Below are positions 4,620-64,000 of a stretch of DNA of 64,000 nt, piece by piece. The DNA lies in NCBI GenBank assembly GCA_963783885.1, contig CAWAPJ010000001.1, forward strand, positions 112,764 through 176,763, written 5' to 3'. Every line of letters begins with the position of its first letter. Position 1 is the stretch's first letter. The notes below the pieces were generated by a model. That model was not told the origin of the DNA. It searched no databases and saw only the letters and a program-made list of their open reading frames with translations. This stretch comes from Waddliaceae bacterium (GTDB taxonomy: Bacteria; Chlamydiota; Chlamydiia; Chlamydiales; SLFE01). The translations under genes were made by a program, and so were the position numbers.

Positions 4620-6485
4620 ATGAAGTACTGTGAATTCGTTTACAAGACGTTAAGGCGAAAGACGCGAGAAGTGATGGTCGGAAGCGTCGGGGTCGGAGGG
4701 GCCAATCCTATCCGTATTCAATCAATGACCACATCCAGCACAAGGGATGTCGAGGCGACGCTCGAGCAAATCATGAGGCTGGCCGATTCCGGCTGCGAAA
4801 TCGCCCGCGTGACTGTACAGGGCATGAAAGAGGCCGAAGCGTGCGAGGGGATCAAAAATGGCCTTTTGCGGAAAGGGTATGAGATTCCCCTTGTCGCCGA
4901 TATTCATTTTTACCCCCCTGCCGCCATGAAAGTGTGCGAATTTGTCGACAAAGTGAGGATCAACCCAGGAAATTTTGCAGACAGAAGGGCGACTTTCAAG
5001 GTTTTGGAATATGATGATGCATCTTATGCCAAAGAGATCGAAAGAATCGAAGAGAAATTCACCCCCCTCGTCGTCAAATGCAAGCAGCTCAAACGAGCTA
5101 TGCGTATCGGGACCAATCACGGATCGCTGTCCGATAGAATCATGAACCGCTTTGGGGACACCCCTCAGGGGATGGTCGAATCGGCTCTTGAATACGCCAG
5201 AATCTGCCGGCAAAATGACTATCACGATTTTATGTTTTCGATGAAGTCTTCCAATCCGCAAGTGATGATTCAGGCCTACCGGCTCCTCGCGGCCAGGATG
5301 TATGAACTGGGGTGGGAATATCCCCTCCATCTCGGCGTCACGGAGGCGGGAGAGGGCGAAGACGGCAGGGCCAAATCGGCAATCGGCATCGGCTCTTTGC
5401 TTCTCGACGGGCTGGGCGATACGATCCGCGTCTCCCTCACGGAAGATCCATGGCACGAGATCGATCCCTGCTCGCGATTGATACGCTTTGCCAAGAGTTA
5501 TCAAGGGCGAGGCATTCTTCCGTTCGAAGAAAAACATCGCGATATGATGCACATCGTTCGGCGCTCGGTCGATCTACCCAAGCATGTTTCGATGCACCGA
5601 GACGGAACAGTCATCCTAAAGATGAGTCGCGAAGCAGCGGATGATCCATCTTTCTATGAAAAGATTGGATGCTCCGAAATTGGGAGCTTAACCCCGATGA
5701 GCGCAGACAGCCTCATTTTTGATCAAATGCCGGAAAATGGAAGCGATCTCAAAGAGGCCGGAGTGGGCATCCTGCAGCCTGTTTCGATTCGAGAGCATGA
5801 ACTCAGGCGCTTTGCGACTCGGCTGGGAGAAAGATATCGCGACGCCGTTTATGTTGAGGAAAATGATGAAGCTGTGTGGCAGTCTTTAAAAACGATCAAA
5901 CCCGCGATGATCTTACTCCGCCCTAAAGAAAACTGCCTCCATGTTTGCCGCAAATTTTTTGAGTGGCTGCAAGCAAACGATCTAAAAGTTCCTGTGATTC
6001 TGAATTTTTCCTATGACTGCTCGAAAGAAGACCTGATTATTCGCTCTGCGGCTGAATGCGGCTCTCTTTTCTGCGATGGTCTTGGAGACGGCCTCTGCCT
6101 TGAAGGGCCTTATGACCCCGCATTTTTGCGCAATTTGAGCTTTAACATTCTTCAATCGGCAAGGATGCGCATGATCAAAACTGACTTTATCTCCTGCCCC
6201 AGCTGCGGACGGACGCTATTCAACCTTCAAGATGTCACAAAAAGAATTCGGAAAAGGACAGCGCATCTTCCCGGCGTCAAAATCGCGATCATGGGATGCA
6301 TTGTGAACGGTCCGGGGGAAATGGCGGACGCTGACTTCGGTTATGTGGGGTCAAAACCGGGAAAAATCGACCTGTATGTAGGCAAGACATGCGTTGAGCG
6401 CAATATCGACTTCGAGGATGCTGACGACCGTTTGGTAGACTTAATCAAAGCTCATGACCGTTGGGTTGACCCTACCACTTATTAG
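4620..6485 (+). CDS. ispG: (E)-4-hydroxy-3-methylbut-2-enyl-diphosphate synthase, long three-domain form
   Basis: IQSMTT, PLVADIHF, RINPGN, HLGVTEAG, SCPSCGRT and MGCIVNGPGE motifs. Confidence 0.97.
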   Translation: MKYCEFVYKTLRRKTREVMVGSVGVGGANPIRIQSMTTSSTRDVEATLEQIMRLADSGCEIARVTVQGMKEAEACEGIKNGLLRKGYEIPLVADIHFYPPAAMKVCEFVDKVRINPGNFADRRATFKVLEYDDASYAKEIERIEEKFTPLVVKCKQLKRAMRIGTNHGSLSDRIMNRFGDTPQGMVESALEYARICRQNDYHDFMFSMKSSNPQVMIQAYRLLAARMYELGWEYPLHLGVTEAGEGEDGRAKSAIGIGSLLLDGLGDTIRVSLTEDPWHEIDPCSRLIRFAKSYQGRGILPFEEKHRDMMHIVRRSVDLPKHVSMHRDGTVILKMSREAADDPSFYEKIGCSEIGSLTPMSADSLIFDQMPENGSDLKEAGVGILQPVSIREHELRRFATRLGERYRDAVYVEENDEAVWQSLKTIKPAMILLRPKENCLHVCRKFFEWLQANDLKVPVILNFSYDCSKEDLIIRSAAECGSLFCDGLGDGLCLEGPYDPAFLRNLSFNILQSARMRMIKTDFISCPSCGRTLFNLQDVTKRIRKRTAHLPGVKIAIMGCIVNGPGEMADADFGYVGSKPGKIDLYVGKTCVERNIDFEDADDRLVDLIKAHDRWVDPTTY

Positions 6486-7175
6486 TCTCTTCATAGCCCA
6501 ACTCGATAAGCAGATCTCCGACATTTTTTTTGAAAACATCTTTTATCTTTTCATCAAAGGATTCTCTCCATATGGAAGTCTTGGCACGGCAGAAGGTCGC
6601 TCCTGTTCCATAGACAGAGGAAAACACTTCAAGGAGGTTTTCGTCCGAGATTTCTATATCGAGAAACCGGGCAATTTTTCTCAGCTCGGCAAGATGCTCC
6701 TCTTCGGTTCAACAGCCTCCGGTAGGGCCGATAAGCTTTTCAAAACTTAAGATGCAGCAATTGGGGCTCTTATGCCACCCCTGAAAAGCCTGGACATGCC
6801 ATCTGGTGAAATTCCACCAATCGGTCCCCTCGATCATGACAATCATCTGTTTGTCGAAAGGGAGACGGGAATACCACTCGAGAGGAAAGGGGCAGCAAAT
6901 GTTTTTTCCATAATATTTGGCAGCCGAAACGACAAAATCCCTGATGTCTCTTGCAATATGAAAAACTTTTGCTCTCTTCCAGATAGGTTCTTAGAGAGTC
7001 GCTGCAAGGGATATGAGAAGCCAAAAACCGCCCTTCATTTTTATATCGATTCAACATGTCAACAATTCTGCCTTGGGTATGGGCGGCCTGTGAAGATATA
7101 TCGGAACATAGCCTAGATTTTGAAGAAGATATGTGTATTTCCACCGGGAGCAGTCCCTATAGTTGAAGTCCGAAG

Positions 7176-8320
7176 ACCCTGATTGCTACCTAAACTTGTT
7201 GTTAAAGTCTTTCGTTGGATTCAGATGCGTAGACTCGATTTGAAGGCAAGGGTAATCCCTTGCCGATAATCGAGGCTTAGCAGATGAATTCAATGAAAGA
7301 TTTTAACGACAATAGTCTCTATGATACTTCCTTAGCCAAAAAAAAGGGGGCATCATGGAAACTTACGCAACAACAGTTTATGTCATCAGCGAAGAAATCC
7401 TTCGAATTTTGGGGATTAAAGACGATCCTCAATCTCAAATGCCCAACGCAGAAGTGATAACTTTTGCTATTTTATCAGCAAAATATTTTTCTTGTAACTA
7501 TAAAATGTCCAGATATTTATGTAAAAGATTACGATTATTCAGAGCTATTTTAAGCAATAGCCGGCTAAATCGCCGAATTCATAAAATTCCTTGGATTTGT
7601 TGGAACGCCATTTTCCGTTTTTTAGCTCTATTTTTTAAGCAAATAAATAAAGATCAGGGTTTTGCTATAGACAGCTTTCCAGTTTCATGTTGTCAGAAAA
7701 ATAGAATCGATAAACGGAAGGTTTTTCTAGAACGAAGGTATTTAGGTTTCGCAGCTTCTAAAAAGCGTTACTTTTGCGGCATAAAAGTTCATAGGATTGT
7801 GACGAGCGAAGGCAAGCCGGTTGAAGTTCTTTTCAAGCCAGGAGCAGTAAGCGATGTAAAGGTGCTCTGGGAAATGAAACTGGACATTCCACCAGATTCT
7901 AAACTTTATGCAGATGGTGCGTATAATTGCTTTGATTTAGAAGACATCTTGAAAGAAGAACAAATTACATTGCTTGCAAAACGGGGATGTAAAGCAAAGA
8001 ATAGAGTCCGAACACCAATTGAAGAGAGGGAAATTAGCAGCAAGCGACAGATTGTCGAGACGACATTTAGCTGCATAACAAACCTTTTCCAAAGAACTTT
8101 TAAGTTCTGCACTGAACAAGGCTTTTTGATAAAAGTATTCTGTGCAATTCTTGCCTATAGTGTTTCGTTTTTATGCAAAGGGGAGCTCAGCTAGAGCTTA
8201 CACGAGCACACCATCTACTGCCTGTAGCGCCTCGGCAAGGGATTACCCTTGCCGAGGCGCTACAGTTGTATCTGGCGCACTCGTGTAAGCTCTAGCTAAG
8301 GTTTAGGTAGCAATCAGGGT
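7176..8320 (+). mobile_element. IS982-family insertion sequence, copy 1 (1145 bp)
   Basis: Perfect 20-bp terminal IR ACCCTGATTGCTACCTAAAC; TSD CGAAG at 7171-7175 and 8321-8325. Confidence 0.92.
7355..8194 (+). CDS. IS982-family DDE transposase
   Basis: AIDSFPV, YFCGIKVH, LYADGAY and RQIVETTFS motifs; 279 aa. Confidence 0.9.
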   Translation: METYATTVYVISEEILRILGIKDDPQSQMPNAEVITFAILSAKYFSCNYKMSRYLCKRLRLFRAILSNSRLNRRIHKIPWICWNAIFRFLALFFKQINKDQGFAIDSFPVSCCQKNRIDKRKVFLERRYLGFAASKKRYFCGIKVHRIVTSEGKPVEVLFKPGAVSDVKVLWEMKLDIPPDSKLYADGAYNCFDLEDILKEEQITLLAKRGCKAKNRVRTPIEEREISSKRQIVETTFSCITNLFQRTFKFCTEQGFLIKVFCAILAYSVSFLCKGELS

Positions 8321-8499
8321 CGAAGGGATCCAGCAAGCCTTTTTCTCGGTAAGCTTCTCTAGAATCGGGATGAGAAGATGACTGCCGGTCTTCGGCATTG
8401 TCGTGACGATAAATTCGGCAGCTGATAAACTGATCGTCAGGAATAAAGCGACAAACAAATAGCGAAACATCGCAGTTATTATAGACAAAGTCAGCTATT

Positions 8500-9009
8500 A
8501 TGAGAATACTGCTTTTGCTGCTTGCTCTTGGAACACTCGGAGCAAACGACATCACTTTGACAATTGAACACGCCCAAACCCCCGAAGAGCTTAGCTGGGG
8601 CCTAATGGGAAGAGAGGAGCTTTCGGAAAATCACGGGATGCTCTTCCATTATCCTCAATGCACAAGACATAAGCTTTGGATGTTTGGCTGTCTTATCCCC
8701 CTCTCTGCCGCATTTCTTGACGAGGAAGGGAAAATCGTCGAAATTCACCAATTGGAAGCCTATCCCGACAAAGTGAAAAATACCGTTCCAATCGAGTCCT
8801 ATGAAGATCTGGAAAATCTGGACCTCAAGGATCCTGTCATCCGGTTTTTTATCAAAAAGTCTGTTATATCTTCCAAACCAGTCAAATATGCCTTGGAAAT
8901 GCCTTATGGCTGGTTTCATGAAAATGGAGTGGCTGAGGGAGACACCCTCATCTGGGAAAGTCCTGTTGAGAAAATCGGGAATATAGGCTATATTAAAATA
9001 TATGAGTAA
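8500..9009 (+). CDS. DUF192-family exported protein
   Basis: Signal peptide; GLMGRE..GMLF..WM...IPLSAAFLD...YALEMP.GW pattern. Confidence 0.85.
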   Translation: MRILLLLLALGTLGANDITLTIEHAQTPEELSWGLMGREELSENHGMLFHYPQCTRHKLWMFGCLIPLSAAFLDEEGKIVEIHQLEAYPDKVKNTVPIESYEDLENLDLKDPVIRFFIKKSVISSKPVKYALEMPYGWFHENGVAEGDTLIWESPVEKIGNIGYIKIYE

Positions 9010-50198: not shown

Positions 50199-51343
50199 AC
50201 CCTGATTGCTACCTAAACCTTAGCTAGAGCTTACACGAGTGCGCCAGATACAACTGTAGCATCGACGGCAAGGGTAATCCCTTGCCGAGGCGCTACAGGC
50301 AGTAGATGGTGTGCTCGTGTAAGCTCTAGCTGAGCTCCCCTTTGCATAAAAACGAAACACTATAGGCAAGAATTGCACAGAATACTTTTATCAAAAAGCC
50401 TTGTTCAGTGCAGAACTTAAAAGTTCTTTAGAAAAGGTTTGTTATGCAGCTAAATGTCGTCTCGACAATCTGTCGCTTGCTGCTAATTTCCCTCTCTTCA
50501 ATTGGTGTTCGGACTCTATTCTTTGCTTTACATCCCCGTTTTGCAAGCAATGTAATTTGTTCTTCTTTCAAGATGTCTTCTAAATCAAAGCAATTATACG
50601 CACCATCTGCATAAAGTTTAGAATCTGGTGGAATGTCCAGTTTCATTTCCCAGAGCACCTTTACATCGCTTACTGCTCCTGGCTTGAAAAGAACTTCAAC
50701 CGGCTTGCCTTCGCTCGTCACAATCATATGAACTTTTATGCCGCAAAAGTAACGCTTTTTAGAAGCTGCGAAACCTAAATACCTTCGTTCTAGAAAAACC
50801 TTCCGTTTATCGATTCTATTTTTCTGACAACATGAAACTGGAAAGCTGTCTATAGCAAAACCCTGATCTTTATTTATTTGCTTAAAAAATAGAGCTAAAA
50901 AACGGAAAATGGCGTTCCAACAAATCCAAGGAATTTTATGAATTCGGCGATTTAGCCGGCTATTGCTTAAAATAGCTCTGAATAATCGTAATCTTTTACA
51001 TAAATATCTGGACATTTTATAGTTACAAGAAAAATATTTTGCTGATAAAATAGCAAAAGTTATCACTTCTGCGTTGGACATTTGAGATTGAGGATCGTCT
51101 TTAATCCCCAAAATTCGAAGGATTTCTTCGCTGATGACATAAACTGTTGTTGCGTAAGTTTCCATGATGCCCCCTTTTTTTGGCTAAGGAAGTATCATAG
51201 AGACTATTGTCGTTAAAATCTTTCATTGAATTCATCTGCTAAGCCTCGATTATCGGCAAGGGATTACCCTTGCCTTCAAATCGAGTCTACGCATCTGAAT
51301 CCAACGAAAGACTTTAACAACAAGTTTAGGTAGCAATCAGGGT
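50199..51343 (-). mobile_element. IS982-family insertion sequence, copy 2 (intergenic)
   Basis: Same 20-bp IR; TSD CTAAG at 50194-50198 and 51344-51348. Confidence 0.92.
50326..51165 (-). pseudogene. IS982 transposase with premature stop
   Basis: Codon 246 is TAA (50428-50430), versus CAA in copy 1 and CCC in copy 3. Confidence 0.85.
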
Positions 51344-62542: not shown

Positions 62543-62878
62543 ATGGGGTTTATCTTGAAAAAAATGCTTATCTTTTCACTTATTTTATTTACTAACTGCC
62601 TAACAGCAATTGAAACCTCAATCCTTTCCGATGAGTTCGTTGCCTATCACCTAAAAGCGGCTGTAGAAGACATTGAAGATGAAGATATCTTTAATTTGAT
62701 TGCCATCAATGTCGAGAATCTTAAATATTGCGGGACGACAAAATCAGCAGCGAATGAACTCATTAATTTGATCGAGGAGGGGTATAAAATCGATGCTTTT
62801 AATATGGCAAAATTAATTGATATTTTGCAAATCGCAAATGCTTTAAAAAATACCACTAAGACCCTGATTGCTACCTAA
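62543..62878 (+). pseudogene. Exported hypothetical protein truncated by IS982 copy 3
   Basis: Signal peptide; ends in TLIAT*, which is encoded by the IS terminal IR. Confidence 0.6.
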
Positions 62879-64000
62879 ACCTTAGCTAGAGCTTACACGA
62901 GTGCGCCAGATACAACTGTAGCGTCGACGGCAAGGGTAATCCCTTGCCGAGGCGCTACAGGCAGTAGATGGTGTGCTCGTGTAAGTTCTAGCTGAGCTCC
63001 CCTTTGCATAAAAACGAAACACTATAGGCAAGAATTGCACAGAATACTTTTATCAAAAAGCCTTGTTCAGTGCAGAACTTAAAAGTTCTGGGGAAAAGGT
63101 TTGTTATGCAGCTAAATGTCGTCTCGACAATCTGTCGCTTGCTGCTAATTTCCCTCTCTTCAATTGGTGTTCGGACTCTATTCTTTGCTTTACATCCCCG
63201 TTTTGCAAGCAATGTAATTTGTTCTTCTTTCAAGATGTCTTCTAAATCAAAGCAATTATACGCACCATCTGCATAAAGTTTAGAATCTGGTGGAATGTCC
63301 AGTTTCATTTCCCAGAGCACCTTTACATCGCTTACTGCTCCTGGCTTGAAAAGAACTTCAACCGGCTTGCCTTCGCTCGTCACAATCATATGAACTTTTA
63401 TGCCGCAAAAGTAACGCTTTTTAGAAGCTGCGAAACCTAAATACCTTCGTTCTAGAAAAACCTTCCGTTTATCGATTCTATTTTTCTGACAACATGAAAC
63501 TGGAAAGCTGTCTATAGCAAAACCCTGATCTTTATTTATTTGCTTAAAAAATAGAGCTAAAAAACGGAAAATGGCGTTCCAACAAATCCAAGGAATTTTA
63601 TGAATTCGGCGATTTAGCCGGCTATTGCTTAAAATAGCTCTGAATAATCGTAATCTTTTACATAAATATCTGGACATTTTATAGTTACAAGAAAAATATT
63701 TTGCTGATAAAATAGCAAAAGTTATCACTTCTGCGTTGGACATTTGAGATTGAGGATCGTCTTTAATCCCCAAAATTCGAAGGATTTCTTCGCTGATGAC
63801 ATAAACTGTTGTTGCGTAAGTTTCCATGATGCCCCCTTTTTTTGGCTAAGGAAGTATCATAGAGACTATTGTCGTTAAAATCTTTCATTGAATTCATCTG
63901 CTAAGCCTCGATTATCGGCAAGGGATTACCCTTGCCTTCAAATCGAGTCTACGCATCTGAATCCAACGAAAGACTTTAACAACAAGTTTAGGTAGCAATC
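62861..64000 (-). mobile_element. IS982-family insertion sequence, copy 3 (last 5 bp beyond the window)
   Basis: IR at 62861 preceded by CTAAG; other IR cut by the window end. Confidence 0.9.
62988..63827 (-). CDS. IS982-family transposase (full length)
   Basis: 279 aa, near-identical to copy 1. Confidence 0.9.
   Translation of the reverse strand: METYATTVYVISEEILRILGIKDDPQSQMSNAEVITFAILSAKYFSCNYKMSRYLCKRLRLFRAILSNSRLNRRIHKIPWICWNAIFRFLALFFKQINKDQGFAIDSFPVSCCQKNRIDKRKVFLERRYLGFAASKKRYFCGIKVHMIVTSEGKPVEVLFKPGAVSDVKVLWEMKLDIPPDSKLYADGAYNCFDLEDILKEEQITLLAKRGCKAKNRVRTPIEEREISSKRQIVETTFSCITNLFPRTFKFCTEQGFLIKVFCAILAYSVSFLCKGELS

What the first reader, a model, noticed from the sequence alone, without database searches (positions are those of the whole stretch)
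7176..8320. IS982 bracketed by two ~110-nt hairpins capped by the same 20-bp palindrome
Seen: just inside each IR is a long hairpin (7196-7312 and 8189-8297). The stems are unrelated, but both are capped by GGCAAGGG-N4-CCCTTGCC (7245-7264 and 8234-8253), inverted relative to each other and ~68 bp from each end. All four mismatches in the 28-bp base of the left stem are G-U pairs on the transposase-sense strand, which suggests selection on single-stranded structure. The transposase stop lies inside the right stem. All three copies keep this layout. I do not know this architecture as typical for IS982. Inference: either captured palindromic elements forming a composite, or structured RNA/ssDNA controlling transposition or serving as binding sites.
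Basis: partly seen in the sequence, partly recalled or inferred. Interest (0 to 1): 0.7.

Follow-up and report, generated by a model that had tools for sequence, protein, structure and literature searches.

The report
IS982 with twin folded-strand end modules
This jumping gene from an environmental chlamydia carries, just inside each tip, a 117-base hairpin whose shape (not sequence) is conserved across dozens of related elements and gene-less mini-copies, and which likely acts as a single-stranded DNA signal that helps the element move, a design we did not find described for this transposon family.

Summary
Confirmed and extended. The element (7176-8320) is an intact IS982 with 20-bp IRs and a 5-bp target duplication. 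The two hairpins are one module in inverted orientation: each starts right after its IR and folds better on the strand reading inward (47 of 47 ends from 24 elements). Shared plan: 28-bp stem, tandem GA at position 48-51 from the tip (37 of 47), a 3x2 purine loop, 8-9-bp cap. All 35 consensus pairs show two-sided changes. The model hits 0 of 71 short IS982 loci but 59 of 150 Chlamydiota genomes, often as IR-hairpin-IR MITEs, including about 200 copies in a genome with no IS982. Loops stay conserved in transposase-free MITEs despite recurrent erasure, so the module likely serves mobility in cis, not transposase expression. Mismatch spectrum leans to ssDNA over RNA, weakly. The identical 20-bp cap and the stop inside the stem hold only in a subgroup. 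Mechanism untested. The scan noted this before on other pieces of the same genome and related MITEs elsewhere (e1-7318036, e1-7546846, e1-2331435, e1-7715150).

The parts
7176..8320 (+). Complete 1145-bp IS982-family element of the long, hairpin-bearing type
7171..7175 (+). Left copy of the 5-bp target duplication CGAAG (equally readable as a 3-bp duplication plus terminal G/C)
   Evidence: 17 of 19 longer two-tipped copies in the genome have a 5-bp direct repeat
8321..8325 (+). Right copy of the target duplication
7176..7195 (+). Left terminal inverted repeat, 20 bp, starts AC
   Evidence: I3
8301..8320 (-). Right terminal inverted repeat, 20 bp, identical to the left
   Evidence: I3
7196..7312 (+). 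Left hairpin module, favoured on the + strand: 28-bp stem with four G.T pairs, tandem GA (7224-7225 opposite 7283-7284), GAA/GA loop (7242-7244 opposite 7265-7266), cap
7245..7264 (+). Cap of left hairpin (8-bp stem, TAAT loop)
8186..8300 (-). Right hairpin module, favoured on the - strand: 28-bp stem with four G.T pairs, tandem GA (8272-8271 opposite 8215-8214); the upper 3x2 loop is erased in this copy
8234..8253 (-). Cap of right hairpin; same stem and TAAT loop when read on the - strand
   Evidence: (I2)
7320..7357 (+). Likely transposase -10 box (TATGAT) followed by a short stem predicted to mask the ribosome-binding site in read-through RNA; inferred only, no full sigma-70 promoter was called
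   Evidence: fold; similar layout in relatives; one search found no + strand promoter
7355..8194 (+). IS982 transposase, 279 aa, DDE residues D106, D187, E235 invariant in 8 relatives; stop inside the right stem
50199..51343 (-). Second copy in the window; both hairpins with all loops; ORF broken by a stop
62861..64000 (-). Third copy in the window; left tip cut by the contig end

Best explanation
This is an intact IS982 of a long subtype that carries the same 117-nt fold-back module directly inside each inverted repeat, and the module likely works as a single-stranded DNA signal, read by shape next to the transposase-binding repeat, that would license or speed transposition. Shown: the module, its inverted placement, its fixed geometry, conserved unpaired purine loops with free stem sequence, better folding on the strand that reads inward from each tip, and its retention in gene-less MITEs. 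Inferred: when one strand is exposed (replication fork, DNA transfer, or a single-strand step of transposition) the correctly folded hairpin forms at the 5' tip of that strand and is bound by the transposase or a host factor; the mismatches let only one strand give the right shape, as in integron attC sites. One hairpin between two repeats is enough for a MITE to spread; two inverted copies would give the full element a usable hairpin on whichever strand is exposed, which would explain why both are kept despite frequent hairpin deletions.
For: Inward strand folds better in 47 of 47 ends (RNA parameters) and 46 of 47 (DNA). Hairpin starts at position 19-26, apex at 77-81.5, tandem GA at 48-51 in 37 of 47, A-T closing pairs 37 of 37 on both sides. 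35 of 35 pairs with two-sided changes, 85.5% cells paired against 53% shuffled and 38-52% slid. Transposase-free MITEs keep the fold and loops: 11 copies from G146 at 79% identity, 30 of 59 pairs with two-sided changes, loop bases invariant; 101 sampled copies in G147, 5' AGAT in 100, 214/206 repeat ends in that genome. Mutation pressure runs the other way: template-switch corrections and deletions recur in G000 (6 of 16 two-tipped copies lost right-hairpin sequence, each at a different junction). Isolated mismatches G.T 60 vs A.C 7, A.G 24 vs C.T 2, T.T 11 vs A.A 2, G.G 5 vs C.C 2; the A.G skew equals the G.T skew, as DNA energies predict (-1.35 vs -1.56) and RNA energies do not (-0.6 vs -4.7); apical loops T-rich, 0 of 47 GNRA/UNCG. 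No significant bias of MITE orientation to flanking genes (27 of 42, p 0.09). attC sites show the same G.T and purine bias (PMC5027507, passages).
Against: No experiment. Most IS982 lack the module (0 of 71 short loci), have transposases of the same length and no clear diagnostic residue, and a large short group may descend from hairpin-bearing ancestors, so IS982 chemistry does not need it. This copy and four others lost the upper loop of the right hairpin, and three such copies share a core SNP, so that variant may have transposed. No bias of G147 MITEs to replichores (48 of 101; 14 of 41 in the unbiased sample, p 0.06). The DNA-over-RNA lean rests on mismatch counts among related sequences, and purine-rich loops are common in RNA too. 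Hairpins without any repeat exist. The protein model shows no extra domain.
Confidence: 0.5

Rival explanations
1. The module acts as RNA: a host transcript entering either end folds the hairpin at once, and the RNA either tethers the transposase to that end or is cut or bound by a host factor (RNase III-like) so that read-through RNA is neutralised.
For: Same strand symmetry fits transcripts entering from either side; G.U pairs are 166 of 2221 pairs; RNA energies give the larger strand gap (mean -15.2 vs -5.9 kcal/mol); Correia MITE transcripts are cut by RNase III (PMC10969869, passages); slight excess of MITEs with the good strand on the mRNA strand (27 of 42).
Against: Transposase-free MITEs keep the loops, so guarding transposase expression cannot be the reason; a separate short stem already masks the ribosome-binding site; A.G mismatch skew and T-rich loops fit DNA better; no terminator-like U tract on the inward strand; no Rfam match.
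Confidence: 0.27
2. The hairpin is an independent palindromic element (REPIN-like) or host-recognised module that was captured once at IS982 ends and by other mobile elements, and is maintained by another enzyme or by the host.
For: The same module occurs in MITEs with TACC ends and 3-bp duplications unlike IS982 (71 of 101 copies; at least 12 more genomes), between short palindromes in G100, and without repeats; G147 has no IS982 match.
Against: Position relative to the tip is fixed, also in the TACC family (position 49); 49 of 53 caps in G000 lie next to an IR and the rest at contig ends; no inner repeats or duplications border the hairpins in the full IS; no Y1/RAYT gene was tied to the module in 5 genomes checked.
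Confidence: 0.13
3. The caps are double-stranded operator or accessory transposase sites and the long stems are by-products of fold-back duplication.
For: The 5' cap arm is identical at both ends in 11 of 23 elements and the apical loop in 10 of 23, with eight different shared loops.
Against: Caps differ between ends in about half the elements; stems covary in 35 of 35 pairs; the most conserved bases are the unpaired loops, which exist only in the fold.
Confidence: 0.06
4. Neutral palindromes kept perfect by template switching, with no function.
For: Template switching is frequent here and makes compensatory-looking changes.
Against: Template switching erases mismatches, yet the GA loops and one-strand mismatch bias persist across 32-100% transposase identity and in MITEs.
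Confidence: 0.03

Closest known systems
IS982 family insertion sequences (review PMC7335449; ISEfm1, ISLll1, ISPasp1-3)
   Same: Single transposase above the NF033520 cut-off, atypical DDE, AC ends, 20-bp IRs, short target duplication.
   Different: About 230 bp longer than its short relatives (1145-1174 vs mostly 917-1041 bp) because of two hairpin modules. The review text has no such structure; by its Table 1 only ISPsa1 has at least 120 bp at both ends (not tested). ISEfm1-like and ISLll1-like loci lack it.
Integron attC sites (PMC5027507)
   Same: Long imperfect DNA hairpin, free stem sequence, conserved unpaired features, G.T and purine bias that favour one strand.
   Different: attC is itself the recombination site of a tyrosine recombinase; here the hairpin lies beside a classical IR of a DDE transposase and no binding is shown.
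IS200/IS605 subterminal hairpins and REP/REPIN elements (own knowledge; PMC3116915 seen as listing only)
   Same: Structured single-strand ends read by a transposase.
   Different: Those use HUH enzymes, short hairpins, both on the same strand and no target duplication (recalled); here the enzyme is DDE, the hairpins are 117 nt, inverted, and there is a duplication.
Hairpin-forming bacterial MITEs (Correia, ERIC, QMITE2; MITECca01 from an IS982 parent, PMC9769881, PMC10969869)
   Same: About 160-bp IR-core-IR non-autonomous copies that fold into long stems.
   Different: Here the core is a conserved module also present twice in the autonomous parent; the MITECca01 paper has no mention of hairpin, stem or secondary structure.

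Membership tests
IS982 | Transposase scores over the IS982 family cut-off | tested here: met
   NF033520 152.8 bits vs 130
IS982 | IRs of 11-32 bp with 5'-AC(N6)T ends | tested here: met
   20-bp perfect IR starting AC, T at position 9 (definition)
IS982 | Target duplication 2-10 bp | tested here: met
   5 bp in 17 of 19 copies
IS982 | Length 845-1282 bp, one ORF of about 290 aa with DDE triad | tested here: met
   1145 bp, 279 aa, D106/D187/E235 invariant
attC-like single-strand recombination site | One strand folds better through G.T pairs and purine-rich unpaired parts | tested here: met
attC-like single-strand recombination site | Associated tyrosine integrase; cleavage within the hairpin | tested here: not met
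   The enzyme is DDE and element ends are at the IRs
IS200/IS605 or REP/RAYT | HUH Y1 enzyme linked to the hairpins, no target duplication | tested here: not met
   Target duplications present; Y1 hits in 3 of 5 genomes were not parents of the module
Known structured RNA family | Rfam match at gathering score | tested here: not met
Intrinsic terminator | Short GC stem followed by a U tract on the folding strand | tested here: not met
   No call on the inward strands; one weak call on the + strand inside the right hairpin
RNase III-processed MITE RNA (Correia type) | Transcript is made and cleaved | not testable with these tools
   No RNA holder listed
Single-strand DNA transposition signal (proposed) | Transposition depends on the folded strand | not testable with these tools
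   Needs an assay

The most novel reading that the evidence does not exclude
A DDE transposase family reads a folded single-stranded DNA module beside its inverted repeat, so these IS982 elements, and a second MITE family with different ends, move by a single-strand-gated pathway so far known only for HUH transposases and integron integrases; the module is a portable, chlamydia-wide cis signal.
Probability: 0.3. Interest if true: 0.88.

Novelty: new variant of a known kind. Interest (0 to 1): 0.66.

Why it matters
The transposition mechanism of IS982 is unknown (PMC7335449). A conserved, strand-specific fold next to each IR gives a concrete, mutable handle on that question. If it is read as single-stranded DNA it would join DDE chemistry to the folded-strand recognition seen in integrons and IS200/IS605. 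It also explains a large, unannotated class of 160-bp repeats in environmental chlamydiae (59 of 150 genomes, up to about 200 copies in one) and shows how an IS can shed MITEs by fold-back copying at its own hairpins.

Tried and rejected
Rfam: only sub-threshold miRNA-type hits, none for 8 related loci apart from a neighbouring tmRNA. Sequencing runs: no RNA holder listed, which says nothing on expression; four DNA runs (contigs) showed no joints, so no circle junction was seen, weak because contigs drop rare forms. Viral contigs gave nothing useful. Promoter and terminator scans were at chance level. Protein fold matched generic DDE enzymes only, best TM 0.48 to piggyBac-type. No hairpin-group-specific residue stood out. 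Trees: 3 changes on 87 rows (careful search unfinished, quick tree shown), 2 changes on 62 rows, one clade not rejected, p-AU 0.30; backbone unresolved. Orientation tests on G147 MITEs were not significant (the duplication count had an offset error and was redone). A link to RAYT or IS200 enzymes was checked and rejected: L238 is a pair of IS982-type ends around an IS200 fragment, L236 a MITE 450 bp from a Y1 gene. No autonomous parent of the TACC-type MITE was found in 12 transposase loci or 20 candidate regions. A recalled likeness to the parvovirus hairpin bubble found no paper and is dropped. K-turn and sigma-54 readings were considered by eye and do not fit the loop geometry or variable loop length. 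End-calling failed or took caps for IRs in some loci (L014, L069, L045, L114, L139, L052); these were left out of counts and trees.

Full report
The element. Window 7176-8320 is a complete IS982: a 279-aa transposase at 7355-8194 scoring 152.8 bits on NF033520 against a cut-off of 130, perfect 20-bp IRs starting AC and a 5-bp direct repeat CGAAG on both sides. The host genome G000 holds many copies; 17 of 19 longer two-tipped copies have a 5-bp duplication of the form C-NNN-G, and most differ from the majority by 0-8 core bases.

The observation. Both hairpins are far beyond chance and the cap pattern occurs six times in the window against 0.02 expected. The left hairpin folds better on the + strand (-70.7 vs -50.6 kcal/mol as RNA), the right on the - strand (-101.1 vs -87.3). 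Each has four G.T pairs in a 28-bp base stem on that strand. Read inward from its own tip, each end has the same plan: IR, 28-bp stem, tandem GA closed by A-T pairs, three pairs, a small loop, a stem, a 3x2 purine loop, an 8-bp cap stem, a 4-nt loop. So the two hairpins are one module in inverted orientation. In this copy the upper loop of the right hairpin has been corrected to a perfect palindrome; the other two window copies keep it.

Relatives. I collected IS982 loci from 401 genomes of the phylum (86 with a match), species genomes, metagenomes (best 80 of 442) and 8 plasmid records. Elements with both tips fall into a long class of 1145-1174 bp and a short class of mostly 917-1041 bp (part of that output was cut, and six loci with mis-called ends were dropped). 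After removing six near-duplicates, 47 ends from 24 long elements remained (one element, L062, lacks the right hairpin). All 47 fold better on the inward strand; the stem starts at position 19-26 and the apex lies at 77-81.5. The tandem GA is intact in 37 of 47 at position 48-51, with invariant A-T closing pairs; pairing below it is 89% within an end, 47% between the two ends of one element and 49% after shuffling. On a sequence-only alignment of 39 of the 47 ends, all 35 predicted pairs have two-sided changes, 85.5% of cells pair against 53% for shuffles and 38-52% for slid partners. The sequences are related, so these are not probabilities. Transposase identity to the query goes down to 32-37%. 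The identical cap is a subgroup trait: the 5' cap arm is the same at both ends in 11 of 23 elements and the loop in 10 of 23, which suggests occasional conversion between ends. The stop lies 126-146 bases from the tip, inside the stem in only about half of the elements, so that feature is incidental. Trees need 2-3 changes of the label and do not reject one clade; a large short group may have lost the module.

The module elsewhere. A covariance model of the hairpin alone hit none of 71 short-type loci, including ISEfm1-like and ISLll1-like elements, and 21 of 29 other loci. It hit 59 of 150 scored Chlamydiota genomes (at most 23 candidates scored per genome), none of 26 in family f4. Many hits are 156-165-bp IR-hairpin-IR MITEs. 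In G000 there are 11 such units: 4 left type, 5 right type, 2 left/right hybrids joined at the cap; 6 of 11 keep a duplication. Their converted arms suggest that they arose in place by fold-back copying (inference). In G146, 11 copies at 79% identity keep the fold with two-sided changes at 30 of 59 pairs and invariant loop bases. G147 has no IS982 match but about 200 copies of a one-hairpin MITE; in 101 sampled copies (median 96% identity) the ends are TACC with a 3-bp duplication in 71, the 5' AGAT is kept in 100, and the opposite side is AA in 95. Related TACC-type MITEs occur in at least 12 more genomes; no parent was found. A few hairpins have no repeat. I could not search outside this phylum with the model.

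What keeps it. The hairpins are costly: 6 of 16 two-tipped copies in G000 lost right-hairpin sequence, each at a different junction, none lost left-hairpin sequence, and loop-erasing corrections appear on three SNP backgrounds. Conservation of the loops against this pressure implies selection. Because gene-less MITEs keep them, the selection is not on transposase expression; a separate short stem is already predicted to mask the ribosome-binding site. MITE orientation shows no significant bias to flanking genes (27 of 42 co-directional cases, p 0.09; 8 of 102 unscored) or to replichores (48 of 101), so neither a host RNA role nor fork-directed insertion is supported.

DNA or RNA. G-U pairs alone do not decide: attC DNA hairpins carry more G.T pairs and purines on the active strand (PMC5027507, passages). 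Among 113 isolated mismatches the inward strand has G.T 60 vs A.C 7, A.G 24 vs C.T 2, T.T 11 vs A.A 2, G.G 5 vs C.C 2. DNA parameters give similar gains for A.G and G.T (-1.35, -1.56), RNA parameters very different ones (-0.6, -4.7), and the observed skews are similar. Apical loops are T-rich and none of 47 is GNRA or UNCG. This is a lean, not a proof. No RNA run holds the element, which is no evidence either way.

Mechanism. Most likely (0.5) a single-strand DNA signal beside the IR, with one good copy per strand so that either exposed strand can serve; rivals are a nascent-RNA signal (0.27), an independent captured module (0.13), a duplex operator (0.06) and neutrality (0.03). Every step beyond the anatomy and conservation is inferred. 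Against the best reading: most IS982 do without the module, transposases show no diagnostic change or extra domain, a loop-less right end may have transposed, and no circle or single-strand intermediate was seen.

Literature. Of the IS982 review PMC7335449 I read parts 1-3 of 6 and searched the whole text: one unrelated 'hairpin', no 'palindrom', 'stem' or 'MITE'; it states that the mechanism is unknown. Passages only were read of PMC9769881, PMC5027507 and PMC10969869; other papers were seen as listings. Ten searches showed no description of this module. Subscription papers, ISfinder records and supplements were not seen. Statements on IS200/IS605, REPINs and K-turns are recalled. Earlier notes of this scan describe the same element on other pieces of this genome and related MITEs elsewhere; they are not independent support.

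Verdict. A true IS982 member and a new structural variant of the family, with a well-supported conserved single-strand fold of untested function. Interest 0.66.

Noticed in passing
G147:C1 (L198-L209, L260-L319); also L321-L339: A 159-bp MITE with TACC ends and 3-bp TWA duplications carries the same hairpin at the same spacing; about 200 copies, no IS982 in that genome, parent transposase unknown.
   Followed up: partly
L238:1234-1939 (G074:C43): IS982-type IR-plus-hairpin ends enclose a fragment of an IS200-type transposase gene, a small non-autonomous composite.
   Followed up: partly
L190, L191, L197 (G074): Hairpin MITEs sit in the loop of another, shorter palindrome, as if targeted to it.
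   Followed up: no
L210-L217 (G100): The hairpin lies between short palindromic repeats with ends that do not start AC, and a second form has no repeat at all.
   Followed up: partly
G000 C36:7741-7860, C2:19810-19859, C44:31-80: Hairpin module without any recognisable IR, at gene ends.
   Followed up: partly
G000 C35:5547-6000 and C4:15049-15170: MITE and internally deleted element of a second hairpin-bearing IS982 subfamily in the same genome; in one the tandem GA has been corrected away.
   Followed up: partly
L130:1-110 and about 1060-1165: A short-type IS982 flanked on both outer sides by a different, near-perfect 105-nt hairpin that the model does not match.
   Followed up: no
L062:76-1109: Long-type element with an intact ORF and duplication but a clean loss of the right hairpin; a natural test case.
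   Followed up: partly
window 7145-7175 and 6770-7144: This copy inserted just upstream of a short minus-strand ORF, between ispG (4620-6485) and a DUF192 gene (8500-9009).
   Followed up: no
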